Source: a virus
DNA: 57,107 bases
Virus genome (UHGV): UHGV-1334481
Reading direction: 5' to 3' (one strand)
A model generated the notes under the pieces. That model was not told the origin of the DNA and made no database searches. It saw nothing but the letters and a program-made list of their open reading frames with translations. Position numbers and translations under genes: made by a program. This document shows positions 3,045 through 53,593 of the stretch, piece after piece (position 1 is the stretch's first letter; every line of letters starts with the position of its first letter).

Positions 3045-3052
3045 TATTTATA
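3045..3052 (-). promoter_or_regulatory. late promoter (TATAAATA) upstream of gene 22
   Basis: Forward tatttata 28 nt upstream of the gene 22 start. Confidence 0.55.
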
Positions 3053-3686
3053 ACGCTTTTTTCATGGCCTCTGCGAGAGCCATATAGGCGTCATCGGCAC
3101 TTGTATCGGCTTCCGCCGTCTGTGATTCGGTAATTTCCTTAGGAGTTACCCATGCATCTGGAGCACTTGGACCCCATACTGCATCAACACCTACAGTTAA
3201 TTTGAATCCTTCGTTTACGATACGATAACCTTTATTTGTGTCAGTCAATGAACCTAATCCACGAGAAGAAACTCCTGGAATCCATCCGGCACGAATATTA
3301 GCTGCTAATTTATCTCCAGGACCATGGTCACCTTCAATAACACGAGCTCGTCCGTATACGTCATTTCCTTTCCACCACATATCTTCTATAATGATAGCGG
3401 CTTGCATCGGGTCAACATTAGCGCGTGGAGGATGATTTAATTCTCCGAGAGCTTGTTTAGTTAAAACTTGCTCATTGATATAGTCTTTTACCGCTTTTTC
3501 TAATATGCGTTTTGGATAAAGACGTTTATTTCTATTGACGACTTCCGCTTGCATGAATATTCCTTCGATGTATAAACCGGGTTTTAAACCTAGGTCTTTT
3601 CCATCATGAGATTCAAGCATTGGCACGCCATCAATAATTTCGCCAGGTTGACCCCAAGTTTCAATTAGTAATTGGGGTTCATTCAT
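3048..3686 (-). CDS. 21: prohead core protease gp21
   Basis: 212-aa ORF; length and synteny (between 68 and 22) match T4 gp21. Confidence 0.92.
   Translation of the reverse strand: MNEPQLLIETWGQPGEIIDGVPMLESHDGKDLGLKPGLYIEGIFMQAEVVNRNKRLYPKRILEKAVKDYINEQVLTKQALGELNHPPRANVDPMQAAIIIEDMWWKGNDVYGRARVIEGDHGPGDKLAANIRAGWIPGVSSRGLGSLTDTNKGYRIVNEGFKLTVGVDAVWGPSAPDAWVTPKEITESQTAEADTSADDAYMALAEAMKKAL

Positions 3687-4349: not shown

Positions 4350-4350
<1 letters not shown>
4111..4350 (-). CDS. 67: prohead core protein gp67 (acidic C-terminal tail)
   Basis: 79-aa ORF with poly-D/E tail; position between 20 and 68 as in T4. Confidence 0.8.
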
Positions 4351-5974
<1,624 letters not shown>

Positions 5975-15004: not shown

Positions 15005-16555
15005 TTAGTAATGAATTTTAATAATATAGTTTAATGATATATTCCATGGTCTAGTTTCATAACCAATTAATCCTTCACGATTAAGTGTACCATGAGCATC
15101 TCTCGGTCCACCTAATTCAAATCCATCATTAGTGAAGTATGAAGCATTATCCCAGTCGGAATATTTTCTAGTTCCAAGATATCCTTGATAAACTGACGCG
15201 CCAAATGGGCCTTCACTTCTGTTATATTCTCCCCAACCACCGGCGTGTTTATGGTATGACATTTGTTGTGCCTGGACACCACCAACATGCATTCCGTCAC
15301 ATCCTACACCAAGTCTATCCTTTCCATAACCATCTTGTCCTCGTTGATTTAAAATATGACCGCCAGTACCGGCTCCTCTGACGAAAAGACCTCGCATATC
15401 AGGAATACCAGGATTATTCCAATCACCACCAAATCTTGATCCAACTACGTTTCTATAATCAGGAAATTGGTCACCTGACACGGTTCCACCGTGACACATA
15501 ATCCAACCTGGAGGTGCTGAATCACCCGCAAACATCATAATAGTTCCAACTGGAACCCTTTCGGACGCATATCTTTCAGTGGCAACAGGTTGATCGCCAT
15601 TTTTCCACATTCCACCGCGTGACCAAATTCCATTTGCTGTAAGATGGTCTAAATTTAAAGAACCATTAATAGTTTGTCCACCACGAGTATTAATTACATC
15701 TGCGTTCCATGCTAATGCTCCAGAGCTATCACCTTCAGGGGCAATACCGGCTTGCGTCGTTAATTTAACTACTCCACGCATAGAACCGGTAGCTCCTCGA
15801 CCATTTAGTGTTTCACCTGTTACTGCAACACCGCCCAAATTATTATTAATTTCAGTCTGCGTTCCTAGGCGTATAACACCCTTATATTCATGTGTTGCAA
15901 CAGAATTCATAAAGGTATACGGGGAAATTGCATATCCTTCGCGGAGAGTTCCTTGACGAATTTGTGCAACAGTAGATAATTGAACTACTCCTCTCACCGA
16001 TTCTGTTGCAGTGTCTTCTGAAGGAGCTATTTGCGAAATTAATTTTATTGCAAGTTTTTGGGTTTTTAGCGGAGTCATCGCAGTAGTATCATCAACTCCA
16101 GCCAAAGCTGCAGGTGTAGATGATATTTTAATAACCCCGTTTGATGACTCAGACGAATATCTATTTTTGAACACATCGTCAGTGTGGTATTTCAGTTTTT
16201 GTGGTGTTATTGATGAATTATTATCTGAGCCTTTTAATGTTTCTTTATTTGTTGAATAACGCGTTAAACCATATTTAGTTTCAGTAGCATTTGGATACAA
16301 TAATCTTGTTGCTAATGTAGCTGGTGTAACGATTTTAGAATTATTAGTTCCATCTAAAACCTCTTGTTCTGACGCAATCATTGCTATTCCTTTAACTTCC
16401 ATAGTTGCATCAGGAATACCATTTACGCCGATATTACTTATTTTTGATAATGCAGACTGTACTGTCGTAACAGTGCCAGGAAAATTCGATCCTACTGGAT
16501 CGAATTTAACATATTTTGATTCATTTGATACGTGCTGATATGTATTGTTACTCAT
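15005..16555 (-). CDS. 12: short tail fiber protein gp12
   Basis: 516-aa ORF in gp12 position (T4 gp12 is 527 aa from memory; length differs). Confidence 0.88.
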
Positions 16556-19916: not shown

Positions 19917-19942
19917 GAAAAAAGGGAGCCTATGGGCTCCCT
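19917..19942 (-). terminator. rho-independent terminator after gene 8
   Basis: Hairpin gggagcc-tat-gggctccc flanked by an A6 run that is a U-run on the minus-strand transcript. Confidence 0.6.
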
Positions 19943-31164: not shown

Positions 31165-31890
31165 ATGAAACTAATCTTTTTAAGTGGTGTAAAGCGTAGT
31201 GGAAAAGATACTACTGCAGATTTTATCATGAATAATTATTCTGCAGTTAAATATCAACTTGCTGGTCCTATTAAGGATGCATTGGCTTATGCATGGGCTG
31301 TATTTGCAGCAAACACTGACTATCCTTGCTTAACTCGTAGAGAGTTTGAAGGAATTGACTATGATCGTGAGACTAATTTAAATCTGACTAAATTAGAAGT
31401 AATTACGATTATGGAACAAGCATTTTGCTATCTTAATAGTAAAAGCCCAATTAAAGGTGTGTTTGTTTTTGATGACGAAGGAAAAGAATCAGTTAATTTC
31501 GTAGCATTTAACAAGATTGCTGACGTTATAAATAATATTGAAGATCAATGGTCAATCCGTCGTCTGATGCAAGCCCTAGGTACGGATTTGATTGTTAATA
31601 ACTTCGACCGCATGTATTGGGTAAAATTATTTGCTTTAGATTATCTTGATAAATTTAACTCAGGTTATGATTATTATATCGTTCCTGATACTCGTCAAGA
31701 TCATGAAATGGATGCGGCTAGGGCGATGGGTGCTACAGTAATTCATGTAGTTCGTCCTGGTCAAAAATCCAATGATACTCATATTACAGAAGCTGGATTG
31801 CCAATTCGTGATGGCGATTTAGTAATTACAAACGATGGTTCTCTTGAAGAACTTTTTTCTAAAATTAAAAATACACTAAAGGTACTATAA
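31165..31890 (+). CDS. 1: deoxynucleoside monophosphate kinase gp1
   Basis: 241-aa ORF with P-loop GVKRSGKDT; same length as T4 gp1. Confidence 0.92.
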   Translation: MKLIFLSGVKRSGKDTTADFIMNNYSAVKYQLAGPIKDALAYAWAVFAANTDYPCLTRREFEGIDYDRETNLNLTKLEVITIMEQAFCYLNSKSPIKGVFVFDDEGKESVNFVAFNKIADVINNIEDQWSIRRLMQALGTDLIVNNFDRMYWVKLFALDYLDKFNSGYDYYIVPDTRQDHEMDAARAMGATVIHVVRPGQKSNDTHITEAGLPIRDGDLVITNDGSLEELFSKIKNTLKVL

Positions 31891-32119
31891 TGTCTGAACA
31901 AACTATTGAACAAAAACTGTCTGCTGAAATCGTAACTCTGAAGTCTCGTATTCTTGATACGCAGGACCAAGCGGCTCGTCTGATGGAAGAATCCAAAATT
32001 CTGCAAGGAACTTTGGCTGAAATTGCTTATGCAGTAGGTATCACTAGCGATACTATCAAAGTTGAAGAAATCGTTGAAGCCGTCAAGAATCTTACTGCTG
32101 AATCTGCTGATGAAGAATA

Positions 32120-32120
<1 letters not shown>
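31890..32120 (+). CDS. 57A: tail fiber assembly chaperone gp57A
   Basis: 76-aa ORF MSEQTIEQKLSAEIVTLKSRILDTQDQ...; matches T4 gp57A. Confidence 0.85.
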
Positions 32121-32576
<456 letters not shown>

Positions 32577-32588
32577 TTTCACAAAGTT

Positions 32589-32618
32589 GTTTACATGCTG
32601 ATGAGGTAGTGATACTAT
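32589..32618 (+). promoter_or_regulatory. T4-type early promoter
   Basis: -35 gtttac and -10 gatactat (tactat) with about 18 nt spacing; AT-rich upstream tttcacaaagttg element. Confidence 0.6.
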
Positions 32619-32648
32619 TACCTCATCAAAATTAATTAGGAAAATAAA

Positions 32649-32906
32649 ATGAAAACTTTCAAAGAGTTTGCTGCAAAAACTACTATCACTGAATCTTCCC
32701 ACGGTATGGAAGTAAAGCTTGGAATGGCTTTAGCTGAAGCTGAGCGTCTTTTCTCTCGTATTAAAGAACTTGCTGCTGCAGTCGATCCTTCATCTTTTAA
32801 AGGAGACCAAACTAAAGTTAAAGCACTTTTAGCATTATGCTCCGATGCAGGAGAAATTGCTAAAAATGGTTCTAAGATGAAGAAACGATTAGAAGATTTA
32901 AAATAA
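32649..32906 (+). CDS. internal-protein-like protein with capsid targeting sequence (ipI locus)
   Basis: 85 aa; N-terminus MKTFKEFAAKTTITE matches the MKTYQEFIAE-type CTS/gp21 cleavage motif (memory); AGGAAA RBS. Confidence 0.6.
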   Translation: MKTFKEFAAKTTITESSHGMEVKLGMALAEAERLFSRIKELAAAVDPSSFKGDQTKVKALLALCSDAGEIAKNGSKMKKRLEDLK

Positions 32907-32918
32907 TTTCACAAAGTT

Positions 32919-32948
32919 GCTTACATAGGGTTTTAGTTGTGATACTAT
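32919..32948 (+). promoter_or_regulatory. T4-type early promoter (near-identical copy of the 32589 cassette)
   Basis: -35 gcttac and -10 gatactat; flanking sequence almost identical to 32577-32630. Confidence 0.55.
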
Positions 32949-32985
32949 TACCCTATCAAAACAAAACAATCGAATGGAAACTAAA

Positions 32986-33282
32986 ATGAAAACTTTCAAA
33001 GAGTTTATCGCTGAATCTTCTGATGTAAAAGTTGAGTTTATTTACACCGGCAAGAAAGATAAAATGGGTGAAATGCCTCATGGAGTTCTTCGTGATGCAT
33101 TAGATAATTTCGGTCAACTCGCCGCAGAAGATTACGGTGATAAAATTGTTGTTACTGGTCCTGCTGCAGTTATTGAAAAATGGGCAGCAGAAAATAAATC
33201 AATTTTTCGTAAAAAAATAAGTTTACTTTTAGATGGGGTAGTGATACTATTACCCTATCAACTACTGAGGAGAATAAAATGA
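32986..33282 (+). CDS. internal-protein-like protein with CTS; 3' end reads through the downstream promoter
   Basis: MKTFKEFIAESS... from ATG 32986; frame passes an A7 run (33211-33217) and ends at TGA overlapping the next ATG; with A6 it would stop at ...SIFRKK. Confidence 0.5.
   Translation: MKTFKEFIAESSDVKVEFIYTGKKDKMGEMPHGVLRDALDNFGQLAAEDYGDKIVVTGPAAVIEKWAAENKSIFRKKISLLLDGVVILLPYQLLRRIK
33221..33250 (+). promoter_or_regulatory. T4-type early promoter
   Basis: -35 gtttac and -10 gatactat, followed by GAGGAG RBS and ATG 33279. Confidence 0.55.
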
Positions 33283-33464
33283 AATGTTGTGAATTAATTC
33301 GAAATGTTGCTATTGCAATTTCTGCTTCCGCTTTCAGTTTTTCAATGTTTGTTGGATTTATATGCGGATTATTGACTACGGCAGAAAATGTTTTTTCACT
33401 TGTAGTAGCATTTTTAATTGGTTTAATTGCTATTGTTATGGATAAAATTTCTAAAGGTGAATAA
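33279..33464 (+). CDS. small hydrophobic membrane protein
   Basis: 61-aa ORF with two hydrophobic segments; strong GAGGAG RBS. Confidence 0.55.
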   Translation: MKCCELIRNVAIAISASAFSFSMFVGFICGLLTTAENVFSLVVAFLIGLIAIVMDKISKGE

Positions 33465-33862
33465 TGAACGTTGAATATTATGTATATGCGGATTACGAAA
33501 ATAATCCGTCTAAAGATGAAGATAATCGTTTAGGTGTAGATGCTTTCGATTCCCCTGCGGCGGCATGGCAATGGGTTGAAAGAACCGATATTCCTTACCG
33601 TTATATTGAAGTGGTTGACCACGCAGGAAACAAGTATCCTAAGGAAGCATATGTTCCTTCCGGGAAGGTAAATTTCCTTTTGTTTGCAGGTGATAATTAT
33701 TATCCCCGTGGTGGGTATACCGATTTAATTGCTAAAGCATTCTCTGAAGATGAACTCCGTGACATTATCAAAGAAAATGAAAACAAACCGATGGATTCTA
33801 ATCGCTTTGATTGGTGGCAAATCGTAAATGCTAATACTCACACTATTGTTGATGAAGGCTGA
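33464..33862 (+). CDS. hypothetical protein
   Basis: 132-aa ORF; start overlaps the upstream stop (translational coupling). Confidence 0.6.
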   Translation: MNVEYYVYADYENNPSKDEDNRLGVDAFDSPAAAWQWVERTDIPYRYIEVVDHAGNKYPKEAYVPSGKVNFLLFAGDNYYPRGGYTDLIAKAFSEDELRDIIKENENKPMDSNRFDWWQIVNANTHTIVDEG

Positions 33863-33864
33863 TA

Positions 33865-34155
33865 ATGATTCTTTATGCGAAAGTATCATCCATTGAAAAT
33901 GGATATAAATATGATCAAGACGCGGCTAAAGCTTTGATTGATGATTATGGCATTTTAACATGTTTTGAAGTTGAAAAGGTTTACATTGACCGTTCATCTT
34001 CTCAAGTTAAATTAGTGAAGGAAGAACGTAAATTTAATACAGTAAATTTTGATTTCTTTATTGAAACAGAAAAAGGTCCTCTTGAATATGATATTTTCAA
34101 GAATCCTTTGGGTCTTGAATGTATTAAATATACTTACATTAACGCAGCGTGGTGA
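33865..34155 (+). CDS. hypothetical protein
   Basis: 96-aa ORF tightly packed after the previous gene. Confidence 0.55.
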   Translation: MILYAKVSSIENGYKYDQDAAKALIDDYGILTCFEVEKVYIDRSSSQVKLVKEERKFNTVNFDFFIETEKGPLEYDIFKNPLGLECIKYTYINAAW

Positions 34156-34158
34156 AAA

Positions 34159-34674
34159 ATGAATATTTGTTTAGGTACTACAATTCCGCAGGGCTACGTA
34201 ATTGATGTCACTACCTGGGAAAATGATGGTGACAACTATAAAACTAAAACACTGTTTGGCGTAGAAGAGCATGAAATCTTACAATTTCAGTATCTTTTAA
34301 AGAAATTTAAAAGCAGATATTCTAGTACTAAAATTGAGCGCTATTGCGGTAATGGTTTGTTCAGCGAGCAATCTCTTTTTATTTATGAATACTTGGTTGA
34401 AGGACTGTTCTCAGACCAGCTTTATCCAGAATTGATTAAAAAGGTCTTTCGCATAGAAGTTGATCTTGGTAATAAATCTGAAGAAGATGAAGAACGTGTA
34501 TTTGACTTATTCTTTGTGAATAGTAATAAGGTGCTTGAAGGACTTATTAATATTTTAGGTAATGCTTCTGAGTATTATGATTATGATTTTTTGCGTGTAG
34601 TTGAGAGTGTTAAATACTCTTATATAGAAGAAGAAATTGTTTTGCCGACCGTTAAAATGTTTAATTTGCTTTAA
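34159..34674 (+). CDS. hypothetical protein
   Basis: 171-aa ORF; compact arrangement. Confidence 0.55.
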   Translation: MNICLGTTIPQGYVIDVTTWENDGDNYKTKTLFGVEEHEILQFQYLLKKFKSRYSSTKIERYCGNGLFSEQSLFIYEYLVEGLFSDQLYPELIKKVFRIEVDLGNKSEEDEERVFDLFFVNSNKVLEGLINILGNASEYYDYDFLRVVESVKYSYIEEEIVLPTVKMFNLL

Positions 34675-34760: not shown

Positions 34761-34833
34761 TGGGAATTAGCCAAGTTGGTAAGGCACTGGATTTTGATTC
34801 CAGGATGCAAAGGTTCGAGTCCTTTATTCCCAG
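34761..34833 (+). tRNA. tRNA-Gln (anticodon UUG)
   Basis: Hand-folded cloverleaf: acceptor tgggaat/attccca, anticodon loop ttTTGat, T-arm aaagg-ttcgagt-ccttt; no encoded CCA. Confidence 0.8.
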
Positions 34834-34834
34834 C

Positions 34835-34921
34835 GCGAGAATGGTCAAATTGGTAAAGGCACAGCACTTAAAATGCTGCGGAATGATTTCCTTGTGGGTT
34901 CGAGTCCCACTTCTCGCACCA
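34835..34921 (+). tRNA. tRNA-Leu (anticodon UAA), long variable arm
   Basis: Acceptor gcgagaa/ttctcgc, anticodon loop ctTAAaa, T-arm gtggg-ttcgagt-cccac, encoded CCA. Confidence 0.8.
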
Positions 34922-34926
34922 AATTT

Positions 34927-35000
<74 letters not shown>

Positions 35001-35010
35001 ATTTAATTTA

Positions 35011-35084
35011 CTCCGTGTAGCTCAGTTTGGTAGAGCGCCTGATTTGGGATCAGGAGGTCCAAGGTTCAAATCCTTGTATGGAGA
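35011..35084 (+). tRNA. tRNA-Pro (anticodon UGG)
   Basis: Anticodon stem cctga/tcagg with loop ttTGGga, T-arm caagg-ttcaaat-ccttg; acceptor has two G-U pairs. Confidence 0.75.
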
Positions 35085-35086
35085 CT

Positions 35087-35176
35087 GGAGGCGTGGCAGA
35101 GTGGTTTAATGCACCGGTCTTGAAAACCGGCAGTCGCTCCGGCGACTCATAGGTTCAAATCCTATCGCCTCCGCCA
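35087..35176 (+). tRNA. tRNA-Ser (anticodon UGA), long variable arm
   Basis: Acceptor ggaggcg/cgcctcc, anticodon stem ccggt/accgg with loop ctTGAaa, encoded CCA. Confidence 0.8.
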
Positions 35177-35181
35177 GTTTT

Positions 35182-35257
35182 GCTGATTTAGCTCAGTAGG
35201 TAGAGCAACTCACTTGTAATGAGAAGGTCGGCGGTTCGATTCCGTCAATCAGCACCA
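35182..35257 (+). tRNA. tRNA-Thr (anticodon UGU)
   Basis: Acceptor gctgatt/aatcagc, anticodon loop ctTGTaa, T-arm ggcgg-ttcgatt-ccgtc, encoded CCA. Confidence 0.8.
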
Positions 35258-35258
35258 A

Positions 35259-35333
35259 GGCCCTGTAGCTGGAAGGTTCAAGCAAGCGACTCATAATCGC
35301 CAGATGGTGGTTCAATTCCACCCAGGGCCACCA
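35259..35333 (+). tRNA. tRNA-Ile (anticodon CAU, presumed lysidine-modified) or tRNA-Met
   Basis: Acceptor ggccctg/cagggcc, anticodon loop ctCATaa, encoded CCA; T4 tRNA-Ile is known to carry CAU (memory). Confidence 0.75.
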
Positions 35334-35337
35334 ATCT

Positions 35338-35412
35338 GGATGTGTAGCTCAGTGGTAGAGCAGTTGACTGTTAATCAATTGGTCCATGGTTCGAATCCAT
35401 GCATGTCCGCCA
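35338..35412 (+). tRNA. tRNA-Asn (anticodon GUU), tentative
   Basis: Anticodon stem gttga/tcaat with loop ctGTTaa, T-arm catgg-ttcgaat-ccatg, encoded CCA; acceptor has two G-U pairs. Confidence 0.65.
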
Positions 35413-35416
35413 AATA

Positions 35417-35492
35417 CGAGGCATAGCTCAGAAGGAAGAGCAAGGACCTTCTAAGTCCTAGGTCGTAGGTTCGATCCCTACTGCCTCGACCA
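35417..35492 (+). tRNA. tRNA-Arg (anticodon UCU)
   Basis: Acceptor cgaggca/tgcctcg (C1-G72), anticodon stem aggac/gtcct with loop ctTCTaa, encoded CCA. Confidence 0.8.
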
Positions 35493-36248: not shown

Positions 36249-36542
36249 ATGAAATCATATGCTCAATTTTTAAATGAAGCGGTGTTAAATGAAGCATCTA
36301 GCACCGAAATTCAAGCTGTCGCAAAAGCAGCCATTGCAGCGGGTAAATATTCCTATAAAGATGCTTCTGACGAATCACGATTCCAGTTTGCTCGCGACAT
36401 GAAAGCAGAAGGATTTACGGGAAATGCAGTTAGTATGGCCTGGAAAAGTTTAGTTGCTACTGGCGCTGCTTTTGCAAAGGCTTCGGGTAAACCTGCTCCT
36501 AAAGCAGATCCTAAAGCTGCACAAGAAAAAAAATATCGTTAA
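36249..36542 (+). CDS. internal-protein-like protein with CTS (ipII-like size); possible frameshift extension to 36723
   Basis: 97 aa, MKSYAQFLNEAVLNEA... CTS-like N-terminus; an A8 run at 36526-36533 precedes the stop and the +1 frame stays open to 36723. Confidence 0.6.
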   Translation: MKSYAQFLNEAVLNEASSTEIQAVAKAAIAAGKYSYKDASDESRFQFARDMKAEGFTGNAVSMAWKSLVATGAAFAKASGKPAPKADPKAAQEKKYR

Positions 36543-36732
36543 AGGAATTATCGCTAAATATGAAGCTATCCTTAAAGAGCTTTTAGTAATCAAAACCGAA
36601 GGCCAAAAGTTAGCCCGTGCTTATAGTTTCAAAGATAATCCACATGTTCACTCTCTTGAGTATGTTGAAGACATTCAAAAAATTATTAAAGACCGCATTT
36701 GGTCTGCTAAACAAATCAAATAACATTCTTAA

Positions 36733-53563: not shown

Positions 53564-53593
53564 GTTTACAAGACTGTTCCTCTGTGGTATTAT
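53564..53593 (+). promoter_or_regulatory. T4-type early promoter
   Basis: -35 gtttac, -10 tattat; leader ttaccctatcaactac is identical to the one at 33250-33265. Confidence 0.5.

What the first reader, a model, noticed from the sequence alone, without database searches (positions are those of the whole stretch)
32577..33282. Tandem internal-protein cassettes, each behind a near-identical early promoter; the second lacks an in-frame stop after an A7 run
Two adjacent small genes (32649-32906, 32986-33282) both begin with a capsid-targeting-like N-terminus (MKTFKEF.A..../E) and are preceded by near-duplicate promoter cassettes (taatttcacaaagttgYttacat...gtgatactattacc), and a third copy of the promoter follows at 33221-33250. 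This resembles the hypervariable ipI locus of T4-like phages, whose products are injected anti-restriction proteins. In the second gene the expected stop (…cgt aaa aaa taa) is out of frame because the A-run at 33211-33217 has 7 A's, so translation continues 20 codons through the downstream promoter.
Basis: partly seen in the sequence, partly recalled or inferred. Interest (0 to 1): 0.6.

Follow-up and report, generated by a model that had tools for sequence, protein, structure and literature searches.

The report
Known T4-type internal-protein cassettes, one frameshifted
This is the well-known variable "internal protein" locus of a T4-like phage, carrying the already named genes ip5 and ip6 behind repeated promoter/hairpin cassettes; the missing stop codon in ip6 comes from one extra A that no deposited relative has, and is most likely a sequence error or a recent slip mutation.

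Summary
Two small genes (32649-32906, 32986-33282) start with T4 capsid-targeting leaders. A promoter/hairpin cassette occurs three times, and the run at 33211-33217 has seven A's.

The window is a Tequatrovirus. The two genes sit between 57B and trna.4, exactly where T4 has ipI. They are the named families Ip5 (T2, RB70) and Ip6 (VR7, PST ipVI), annotated in about 200 deposited genomes. The cassettes fit the published PeSL promoter-early stem-loop elements, and T4 carries the same ones.

Ip6 is 77 aa everywhere else, ending RKK-stop with an A6 run. None of 181 deposited phage records matches an A7 60-mer. Two other assemblies, one ENA and one Logan, do have A7, each on a different local haplotype.

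The window also has unique one-base indels that break the essential portal gene and 57B. I therefore lean about 6:4 to an assembly error over a real slippage mutation. Nothing suggests a programmed feature.

The 21 added residues are translated promoter DNA, hydrophobic and predicted disordered.

Novelty: already known. Interest: low.

The parts
32181..32576 (+). 3' part of gene 57B (Acb1 family), the conserved left flank of the locus. Its last codons (DDLK-stop) belong to cassette 1. In this window the gene is split by a +C at 32201.
   Evidence: Pfam Acb1 2.3e-52. Intact at 151 aa in relatives. Indel listed; 0 of 556 records are identical over it.
32561..32631 (+). Cassette 1, a PeSL-type element. 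It contains the stop of 57B, an A/T-rich stretch, the -35 box TTTACA (32590-32595), a 17-nt spacer, the -10 box TACTAT (32613-32618), and a 13-bp hairpin (32599-32611 / 32616-32628) that encloses the -10 box.
   Evidence: Repeat D1. Promoter match. Hairpin -17.4 kcal/mol, z = -3.5. One base different from the T4 57B-ipI intergenic region. Annotated as a T4 early promoter in phage ASO78A.
32649..32906 (+). ip5, an 85-aa internal head protein. The predicted leader is residues 1-15 (MKTFKEFAAKTTITE), cut after I-T-E, leaving a 70-aa basic helical-hairpin protein.
   Evidence: phrog_3499 3.9e-49, full length. 98% identical to T2 Ip5 and 91% to RB70 Ip5. ITE-SSHG is invariant in the alignment. AF2 model is two long helices, pLDDT 69. 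pI 9.2.
32891..32961 (+). Cassette 2, a PeSL-type element. It contains the stop of ip5 (EDLK-stop), the -35 box CTTACA (32920-32925, one mismatch), a 17-nt spacer, the -10 box TACTAT (32943-32948), and a different, weaker hairpin.
   Evidence: Repeat D1, 83% to copy 1. Hairpin -13.8 kcal/mol, z = -2.7. Its 5' half equals the 5' half of the T4 ipI-trna.4 intergenic region.
32986..33282 (+). ip6 as it reads in this window: 98 aa. Residues 1-10 are the leader (MKTFKEFIAE) and residues 11-77 are the conserved Ip6 domain. Residues 78-98 (ISLLLDGVVILLPYQLLRRIK) are a translation of cassette 3. In relatives the gene ends after codon 77 (window 33216).
   Evidence: phrog_8111 has 77 positions and matches only residues 1-77, 7.2e-51. 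Homologues of 75-83 aa end in ...SIFRKK. AF2 core 11-78 has pLDDT 81-88, the extension about 40. The extension has GRAVY +1.17.
33211..33217 (+). A7 run. It has one A more than the A6 of relatives, which puts the TAA at 33218-33220 out of frame.
   Evidence: A6 in L001-L005 and A7 in the window, L006 and L007. 0 of 181 records match the three A7 60-mers at 100%. 30 records match the A6 59-mer at 100%. IMG/VR: A7 0, A6 2. JGI metagenomes: 5 of 5 are A6.
33193..33263 (+). Cassette 3, a PeSL-type element. It contains the A-rich stretch, the -35 box TTTACT (33222-33227), a 17-nt spacer, the -10 box TACTAT (33245-33250), and a 12-bp hairpin (33232-33243 / 33248-33259). It serves trna.4.
   Evidence: Repeat D1, 62%. 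Exact consensus match. Hairpin -17.4 kcal/mol, z = -3.0. Its 3' half equals the 3' half of the T4 ipI-trna.4 intergenic region.
33279..33464 (+). trna.4 homologue (61 aa), the conserved right flank of the locus. Its ATG overlaps the TGA of the extended ip6 ORF (ATGA).
   Evidence: phrog_1692 2.5e-33. Annotated Trna.4 in relatives and in T4. Pfam Phage_T4_Y07D on the homologue in L006.
3048..3686 (-). Gene 21 prohead protease, the enzyme expected to cut the Ip leaders after I-x-E.
   Evidence: Pfam Peptidase_S77 1.5e-111.

Best explanation
The region is the ipI hyperplastic locus of a Tequatrovirus (T4-like phage). In this lineage it holds two known cassettes, ip5 and ip6, instead of T4's ipI.

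How the locus is built: each gene is bracketed by a repeated regulatory module. The module runs from the stop codon through an A/T-rich stretch, a sigma-70 early promoter (TTTACW-N17-TAYWAT) and a hairpin over the -10 box, to the Shine-Dalgarno site and the first seven or so codons of the capsid-targeting leader. These repeats are the published PeSL elements. They give each gene its own early transcription. They also serve as homology arms, so whole ip genes can be swapped, inserted or deleted between related phages. T4 has the same left and right cassettes around ipI.

What the products probably do (inferred): the proteins are built into the prohead core through their N-terminal leader. The gene 21 protease trims them after I-T-E (Ip5) or I-A-E (Ip6). 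They are injected with the DNA. By analogy with T4 Ip1, Ip2 and Ip3, they most likely each block one variant of a host nuclease that attacks modified phage DNA (GmrSD-type type IV restriction).

The A7 run: it is a one-base insertion in an A6 run that is otherwise constant in deposited relatives. It is not part of the design. It replaces the stop with 21 residues of translated promoter DNA. I lean about 6:4 to a sequencing or assembly error in this window over a genuine recent slippage mutation.
For: Shown by tools:
- Synteny 3, 1, 57A, 57B, [ip genes], trna.4, trna.3, trna.2, tRNAs is identical to T4.
- Full-length matches to the Ip5 and Ip6 PHROG families and to named Ip5/Ip6 proteins.
- The leaders align with T4 IPI, IPII and IPIII and carry I-x-E. 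The gp21 protease is in the window.
- The cassettes are far above chance. They match the PST/T4 PeSL consensus, which hits 10 times, all on the + strand in the early region, against 0.24 expected. Their hairpins have z of -2.7 to -3.5.
- The T4 cassettes are the same or are chimeras of these.
- About 210 of 728 related records carry this arrangement; the others carry different inserts.
- A6 and a 77-aa product are found in all deposited relatives examined.
- The window has other one-base indels found in no relative: one splits the essential portal gene (0 of 432 records) and one splits 57B (0 of 556). A further indel, seen against the closest relative only, splits a 157-aa ORF.

From the literature:
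- PeSL definition and the IP-locus precedent (PMC2839356, PMC4122927).
- Leader and gp21 cleavage rules (PMC9026906).
- Ip1-3 each inhibit a distinct GmrSD (PMC12373910).
Against: - Packaging, cleavage and injection of Ip5 and Ip6 were not and cannot be tested here.
- The mature parts show no sequence or fold similarity to IPI* or to any characterised inhibitor. The anti-restriction role is therefore only an analogy.
- The hairpins have no U-tract, and the terminator scan found none. Terminator function is unproven for these copies.
- There is no late promoter (TATAAATA) directly upstream of ip5 or ip6; the nearest is at 31527. How enough protein is made at the time of head assembly is not explained here.
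- Against the error reading of A7: the same A7 occurs in two independent assemblies on two other local haplotypes, and the neighbouring genes there are intact.
Confidence: 0.85

Rival explanations
1. The A7 is a genuine spontaneous +1 slippage mutation in an A6 run (Streisinger-type, as at the classic T4 rII hot spots). The phage really makes a 98-aa Ip6 with a hydrophobic tail. The tail is tolerated because ip6 is dispensable on the propagation host.
For: - A7 is seen three times on three different local haplotypes, and each haplotype also exists as A6.
- In the ENA scaffold all ten neighbouring genes are intact, so that assembly is not generally error-ridden.
- The Logan contig recurs in 3 samples.
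- Other ip alleles with frameshifts exist, for example P0015, a truncated Ip5.
- From general knowledge: A6 runs are frameshift hot spots in T4.
Against: - 0 of 181 deposited isolate genomes and 0 of 7 IMG/VR and JGI contigs have A7.
- This window carries a unique frameshift in the essential portal gene. That shows one-base errors, or a non-viable template, in this very sequence.
- Homopolymer miscalls also recur independently.
Confidence: 0.38
2. The A-run is a functional switch. Slippage by DNA polymerase, RNA polymerase or the ribosome at the run would deliberately yield two Ip6 forms (77 and 98 aa), or would couple ip6 translation to trna.4 through the ATGA overlap. That would make it a contingency locus in an injected protein.
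For: - Recurrence of A7 on three haplotypes.
- The extended ORF ends exactly on the start codon of trna.4.
- Ribosomes reading through would melt the cassette-3 hairpin.
Against: - The extension is simply the translation of a conserved promoter. It is predicted disordered and hydrophobic.
- 13.5% of shuffles stay open that long.
- A6 is constant in all deposited genomes examined, which argues for selection to keep the stop.
- Runs of 6-7 A are short for efficient transcriptional slippage, and there is no X XXY YYZ heptamer in frame (inspection, general knowledge).
Confidence: 0.04
3. The two ORFs are ordinary early accessory genes that only share N-terminal codons because of the repeated cassette. 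They are not packaged in the head.
For: - The shared first seven codons lie inside a DNA repeat (D2), so the similarity could be kept by recombination rather than by protein function.
- There is no direct evidence of packaging for Ip5 or Ip6 in the papers I could read.
Against: - The I-x-E cleavage motif lies beyond the repeat and is conserved (ITE-SSHG is invariant; IAE/INE in Ip6).
- A divergent Ip5 (P0014) has a shortened leader, MQTYQTFITE, that still keeps the motif.
- The T4 proteins with this leader are packaged, and 10 residues suffice for targeting (PMC9026906).
Confidence: 0.05

Closest known systems
T4 ipI locus and IPI/IPI* (Ip1), inhibitor of GmrSD type IV restriction
   Same: - Same genomic slot, between 57B and trna.4.
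- Same upstream cassette, one base different over about 90 nt.
- Same kind of leader: T4 IPI is MKTFKEFTSTTTPVSTITE|A and window Ip5 is MKTFKEFAAKTTITE|S.
- Similar small size.
   Different: - The mature domains are unrelated. Pfam IPI_T4 scores 7e-54 on T4 IPI and gives nothing on Ip5 or Ip6.
- There are two genes here instead of one.
- The targets are unknown.
Ip5 (phages T2, RB70, RB14) and Ip6 / ipVI (phages VR7, VR20, PST, fFiEco06 and about 200 other Tequatrovirus records)
   Same: - Ip5 is 98% identical to the T2 protein and 91% to RB70 Ip5.
- Ip6 residues 1-77 are 73-95% identical to the named Ip6 proteins.
- The AF2 model superposes on VR7 Ip6 with TM 0.96.
- Gene order and cassettes are identical in relatives.
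   Different: - In this window Ip6 has 21 extra C-terminal residues because of A7.
- Its leader begins MKTFKEF (ip5/ipI type) where most Ip6 proteins have MKTYQEF. The closest relative, UGKSEcP2, is identical over those codons, and P0001 (L006) begins the same way.
PeSL (promoter-early stem-loop) cassettes of T4-type phages (Arbiol et al. 2010, PMC2839356; Comeau et al. 2014, PMC4122927)
   Same: - Intergenic, repeated, about 70-100 nt.
- A/T-rich upstream part, then TTTACW-N17-TAYWAT.
- A stem-loop overlapping the -10 box, which is one of the common positions described for RB49/phi1.
- Shine-Dalgarno site and start codon at the 3' end.
- Located in a hyperplastic region and flanking genes that differ between close relatives.
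   Different: - In the PST figure legend the stem-loops lie just upstream of the promoter; here they enclose the -10 box.
- There is no U-tract, so terminator activity is unproven.
- The homology here extends into coding sequence on both sides: the last 4-5 codons upstream and the leader codons downstream.
Streisinger slippage frameshifts at A-runs (T4 rII hot spots); own knowledge, not checked in a paper here
   Same: A single-base gain in an A6 run in a T4-type genome, seen recurrently on different backgrounds.
   Different: Here it cannot be told apart from a homopolymer sequencing error. It sits at a stop codon, so it lengthens rather than truncates the protein.

Membership tests
T4-type internal proteins (Ip), defined by the capsid-targeting leader | N-terminal leader of 10-19 residues resembling those of T4 IPI, IPII and IPIII | tested here: met
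   Ip5 MKTFKEFAAKTTITE against T4 IPI MKTFKEFTSTTTPVSTITE. Ip6 MKTFKEFIAE against T4 IPII/IPIII MKTYQEFIAE. Definition from PMC9026906.
T4-type internal proteins (Ip), defined by the capsid-targeting leader | gp21 cleavage motif L/I-x-E at the end of the leader, conserved in homologues | tested here: met
   I-T-E15 is invariant in 6 Ip5 sequences. I-A-E10 (I-N-E in one) is found in 10 Ip6 sequences. Motif from PMC9026906.
T4-type internal proteins (Ip), defined by the capsid-targeting leader | Encoded in one of the two Ip loci of T-even phages | tested here: met
   Lies between 57B and trna.4, the position of T4 ipI.
T4-type internal proteins (Ip), defined by the capsid-targeting leader | Prohead protease gp21 encoded by the same phage | tested here: met
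   Window 3048-3686 (-), Peptidase_S77 1.5e-111.
T4-type internal proteins (Ip), defined by the capsid-targeting leader | Physically present in the head, processed, and injected with the DNA | not testable with these tools
   Needs virion mass spectrometry or injection assays. No such data for Ip5 or Ip6 were found in the papers read.
IPI_T4 (Pfam PF11634), the IPI* GmrSD inhibitor fold | Sequence match of the mature domain to the IPI_T4 model | tested here: not met
   T4 IPI scores 7.3e-54 as a positive control. Ip5 and Ip6 give no hit at E <= 1.
IPI_T4 (Pfam PF11634), the IPI* GmrSD inhibitor fold | Structural similarity to IPI* | tested here: inconclusive
Inhibitors of GmrSD-type type IV restriction (function of T4 Ip1, Ip2, Ip3) | Relief of restriction by a specific GmrSD variant when the protein is supplied | not testable with these tools
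   Shown for Ip1-3 only (PMC12373910). For Ip5 and Ip6 it is an inference from shared locus and leader.
PeSL (promoter-early stem-loop) cassettes | Sigma-70-like early promoter with the PST/T4 consensus TTTACW-N17-TAYWAT, preceded by an A/T-rich stretch | tested here: met
   Cassettes 1 and 3 match exactly and cassette 2 has one mismatch in the -35 box. The consensus gives 10 hits in the window against 0.24 expected. Consensus from PMC4122927.
PeSL (promoter-early stem-loop) cassettes | Adjacent or overlapping stable stem-loop | tested here: met
   Free energies of -17.4, -13.8 and -17.4 kcal/mol, with z of -3.5, -2.7 and -3.0. Stem sequences differ between copies while pairing is kept (GAGGTA/TACCTC against GGGGTA/TACCCT). 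A position overlapping the -10 box is described in PMC2839356.
PeSL (promoter-early stem-loop) cassettes | Repeated, intergenic, and flanking genes that are swapped or missing in close relatives | tested here: met
   Three copies bracket ip5 and ip6. T4 has the outer two around ipI, and its right-hand copy is a chimera of window copies 2 and 3. Only about 210 of 728 related records share this arrangement.
PeSL (promoter-early stem-loop) cassettes | Stem-loop acts as a transcription terminator or attenuator | not testable with these tools
   The consensus scan found no canonical intrinsic terminator because there is no U-tract. Activity was shown only for one RB49 PeSL (PMC2839356).
Programmed frameshift or slippage site | In-frame slippery heptamer or a long homopolymer, with conservation of the extended frame | tested here: not met
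   The run is A6 in all deposited relatives, with the stop in frame. The extended frame is translated promoter DNA, with pLDDT about 40. No X XXY YYZ heptamer is in register.

The most novel reading that the evidence does not exclude
The A6 run that abuts the ip6 stop codon is a recurrent, heritable slippage switch. A6-to-A7 changes arise repeatedly (three haplotypes seen) and are sometimes selected. Possible reasons are that the hydrophobic 21-residue tail alters or inactivates an injected protein that some host defence senses, or that read-through melts the cassette-3 hairpin and couples translation into trna.4. That would be a contingency locus in a phage anti-defence gene.
Probability: 0.05. 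Interest if true: 0.45.

Novelty: already known. Interest (0 to 1): 0.15.

Why it matters
It matters little as a discovery. The locus, the two genes, the leader and the repeated promoter/hairpin cassettes have all been described, from 1994 onwards. The same arrangement is annotated in about 200 deposited phage genomes.

There are three practical points:
- The window sequence carries frame-breaking one-base indels, including one in the essential portal gene. Any unusual ORF in it should be checked against reads before being interpreted.
- Ip5 and Ip6 remain without a known target. Since Ip1-3 were each shown in 2025 to block a different GmrSD nuclease, they are obvious candidates for the same kind of test.
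- An A6 run at a known type of hot spot is constant across 181 genomes. This suggests (inference) that the native Ip6 C-terminus is under selection, which means the gene is in use.

Tried and rejected
- PDB sequence search with Ip5 and Ip6: nothing below E = 0.6.
- Pfam: no family for either protein.
- The Ip5 model is a plain helical hairpin, so I ran no further search on it.
- Rfam at E <= 0.1 over 31-37 kb: only the tRNA array and sub-threshold noise, nothing in the ip region.
- Terminator scan: none. I do not call the hairpins terminators.
- Exact look-up of the window's 98-aa protein: not on record, so the source of the window and its sequencing platform stay unknown.
- Repoila et al. 1994 and Rifat et al. 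2008 are not held in the library. I cite them only through papers that describe them.
- I first read the 57B change as a quasi-palindrome template switch. The search showed that the loop (AA or TT) is polymorphic among phages and that only the extra C is unique. I therefore treat it as a plain one-base insertion.
- Programmed frameshifting: considered and rejected, see the rival explanations.
- Minus-strand ORFs over the region (33-44 aa) have no support and were not pursued.
Full report
**1. What is in the sequence**

The window is a T4-like phage. Over 31900-34200 it is 99.7% identical to Escherichia phage UGKSEcP2 (genus Tequatrovirus), and 728 phage records match in part.

The gene order around the finding is 3, 1 (dNMP kinase), 57A, 57B, two small ORFs, trna.4, trna.3, trna.2, then a tRNA array. 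In T4 the single gene ipI occupies the slot between 57B and trna.4. So this is the ipI locus itself, not merely something that resembles it.

The two ORFs are at 32649-32906 (85 aa) and 32986-33282 (98 aa).

A 71-nt direct repeat occurs at 32561-32631, 32891-32961 (83%) and 33193-33263 (62%). A second repeat of 46 nt covers the ribosome-binding site and the first codons of both genes. The 14-mer GTGATACTATTACC occurs exactly three times in 57 kb, only at these three sites. Allowing two mismatches gives 5 matches against 0.33 expected. The run at 33211-33217 is A7.

**2. The two genes**

The first protein matches PHROG 3499 (internal head protein) over all 85 positions at 3.9e-49. It is 98% identical to a T2 protein that UniRef names Ip5 internal head protein, and 91% identical to Ip5 of RB70.

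The second matches PHROG 8111 (internal virion protein) at 7.2e-51. That family has 77 positions and covers only residues 1-77. Relatives annotate the pair as ip5 and ip6, or ipVI in phage PST.

I translated T4 IPI, IPII and IPIII from the T4 record to compare the leaders:
- T4 IPI: MKTFKEFTSTTTPVSTITE|A
- T4 IPII and IPIII: MKTYQEFIAE|A
- Window Ip5: MKTFKEFAAKTTITE|S
- Window Ip6: MKTFKEFIAE|S

The published rules are as follows. A 10-19 residue N-terminal propeptide targets the protein into the prohead core. Residues 4 and 7 matter for targeting. The gene 21 protease cuts after L/I-x-E (PMC9026906). Both proteins fit these rules. I-T-E is invariant among the Ip5 sequences, and I-A-E (I-N-E in one) is found among the Ip6 sequences. 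The gp21 protease is encoded in the window at 3048-3686 on the minus strand.

The mature parts are not related to IPI*. Pfam IPI_T4 scores 7e-54 on T4 IPI and gives nothing on either window protein. A PDB sequence search finds nothing.

AlphaFold models give a small beta-alpha-beta-beta-alpha-beta domain for Ip6, with pLDDT 81-88 for residues 11-78. Ip5 comes out as a two-helix hairpin with pLDDT 69. Fold searches with Ip6 return only Ip6 of phage VR7 (TM 0.96) and generic small domains.

**3. The repeated cassettes**

Each copy reads, in order:
- the stop codon of the upstream gene,
- an A/T-rich stretch,
- a -35 box (TTTACA, CTTACA or TTTACT),
- a 17-nt spacer,
- a -10 box TACTAT,
- a hairpin that encloses the -10 box,
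- then the Shine-Dalgarno site and ATG.

The published consensus for PeSL (promoter-early stem-loop) elements of the PST/T4 pair is TTTACW-N17-TAYWAT (PMC4122927). It hits the window 10 times, all on the + strand between 32.5 and 56.6 kb, against 0.24 expected. Cassettes 1 and 3 are among the hits. Cassette 2 misses by one base (C at 32920), and that base is a T in the closest relative.

As RNA the hairpins fold at -17.4, -13.8 and -17.4 kcal/mol, with z of -3.5, -2.7 and -3.0. Copies 1 and 3 keep the pairing with different stem sequences. For the RB49/phi1 PeSLs the authors state that the stem-loop most often lies between the -35 and -10 boxes or overlaps the -10 box (PMC2839356).

T4 carries the same elements. 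Its 57B-ipI intergenic region differs from cassette 1 by one base. Its ipI-trna.4 intergenic region equals the 5' half of cassette 2 joined to the 3' half of cassette 3. This is the pattern expected if ip genes are exchanged by recombination within the cassettes. The PeSL authors themselves note that such shuffling was first seen at the T4 IP locus by Repoila et al. 1994 (PMC4122927).

The homology also runs into coding sequence. 57B ends DDLK-stop and Ip5 ends EDLK-stop, both inside the repeat, and both ip genes share their first seven codons.

I found no canonical terminator, because the hairpins have no U-tract. Terminator function is therefore not shown for these copies. There is also no late promoter box directly upstream of either gene; the nearest TATAAATA on the + strand is at 31527, before 57A.

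**4. The A7 run**

In UGKSEcP2, fFiEco06 and ASO78A the ip6 gene is 234 nt (77 aa) and the run is A6. The window has exactly one extra A. Homologues of 75-83 aa end in ...SIFRKK.

Among deposited phage genomes, 30 records match the A6 59-mer perfectly. None of 181 records matches any of three A7 60-mers perfectly, one 60-mer for each local haplotype. IMG/VR has two A6 and no A7. JGI metagenomes have five A6 and no A7.

The large protein collection does hold two 98-aa forms. One is on a 167-kb ENA metagenome scaffold and one is on a 1.65-kb Logan contig seen in three samples. Both have A7 in their DNA. The three A7 sequences sit on three different local haplotypes, each of which also exists as A6. 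So A7 arose, or was miscalled, at least three times independently.

**5. Error or mutation?**

I compared 55 kb of the window with UGKSEcP2. This shows several uncompensated one-base indels:
- One near 5657 splits the portal gene into ORFs of 112 and 412 aa. All 432 matching records have the extra base.
- A +C at 32201 splits 57B (Acb1). None of 556 records is identical over it.
- An A8 against A7 at 36526 splits a 157-aa ORF.
- Further homopolymer length differences lie in intergenic DNA at 19917 and 37440.

A phage cannot grow without its portal. This sequence therefore contains at least one error of the same kind, or comes from a non-viable template. That raises the odds that the A7 is also an artefact.

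Against that, the ENA scaffold with A7 has ten intact neighbouring genes. A6 runs are also classic frameshift hot spots in T4 (own knowledge).

I put the window's A7 at about 60% artefact and 40% genuine recent mutation.

**6. Consequences if the A7 is real**

The added residues ISLLLDGVVILLPYQLLRRIK are the translation of cassette 3. They are hydrophobic (GRAVY +1.17) and are modelled with pLDDT about 40. The leader is untouched, so packaging should still occur (inference). The tail could disturb folding, ejection or target binding (inference).

The ORF ends in an ATGA overlap with trna.4. Ribosomes would pass through the cassette-3 hairpin. This could slightly change expression of trna.4 (inference).

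Staying open for 21 codons is not remarkable; 13.5% of shuffles do so. The fact that A6 is constant in 181 genomes at a slippage-prone site suggests selection for the native C-terminus (inference).

**7. Function**

T4 Ip1, Ip2 and Ip3 are each injected inhibitors of a different GmrSD-type type IV restriction nuclease, and they show no cross-protection. The authors expect the other proteins of the two Ip loci to target further variants of the same immune system (PMC12373910). IPIII is needed to infect ECOR17 (bioRxiv 10.1101/2022.04.14.488369).

For Ip5 and Ip6 this is the most likely role, but it rests only on analogy.

**8. Verdict**

What it found is textbook T-even biology, already annotated in about 200 genomes. 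The one unusual detail is most simply a one-base error or an incidental mutation.

Novelty: already known. Interest: 0.15.

Noticed in passing
window 4350-5935, minus strand (indel near 5657): The essential portal gene (gp20) is split into ORFs of 412 and 112 aa by a one-base deletion (GTGGATAATG in relatives, GTAGAAATG here). All 432 matching phage records carry the extra base. This points to sequence errors in this assembly, or to a defective template.
   Followed up: yes
window 32120-32576 (indel at 32201): Gene 57B (anti-CBASS Acb1 family) is split by an extra C, which creates a perfect palindrome CTGGAAG-TT-CTTCCAG. No deposited record has it (0 of 556). The two-base loop (AA or TT) is polymorphic among relatives, as if the hairpin loop flips.
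   Followed up: partly
window 36249-36723 (A-run at about 36526): An A8 run, against A7 in UGKSEcP2, splits a 157-aa hypothetical gene into two overlapping ORFs of 97 and 89 aa. Two further homopolymer length differences lie in intergenic DNA, at 19917 (A6 against A7) and 37440 (T5 against T6).
   Followed up: partly
window about 16487-16502: A four-base inversion of a hairpin loop inside the gene that UGKSEcP2 annotates as tail collar fiber protein: CGATCC-TACT-GGATCG here against CGATCC-AGTA-GGATCG in UGKSEcP2. It is in frame.
   Followed up: no
window 34761-35492: The tRNA array has nine genes (Gln, Leu, Gly, Pro, Ser, Thr, Met, Asn, Arg). The closest relative also has Tyr and His, and the two sequences diverge sharply after 35334.
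   Followed up: no
window 32590-56570, + strand: The PST/T4 PeSL promoter consensus TTTACW-N17-TAYWAT occurs 10 times, all on the + strand and all in the right-hand 25 kb, against 0.24 expected. The copy at 53565-53593 shares the 5' leader ACCCTATCAACTAC.GAGGA with cassette 3.
   Followed up: partly
window 32986-33006, compared with P0002-P0009: Ip6 starts MKTFKEF (the ip5/ipI version of the leader) in the window and in the ENA scaffold (P0001), and UGKSEcP2 is identical over these codons. Most Ip6 proteins start MKTYQEF. This suggests gene conversion between the leader codons of neighbouring ip genes.
   Followed up: partly
P0015 (ENA, 171-kb contig) and P0010 (ENA, 531-nt contig): P0015 is an Ip5 that goes out of frame after residue 41 and ends at 50 aa. 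P0010 fuses an N-terminus carrying Pfam PF00238 (ribosomal protein L14 family, my reading of the accession) to the Ip6 C-terminus, and is probably a chimeric assembly.
   Followed up: no
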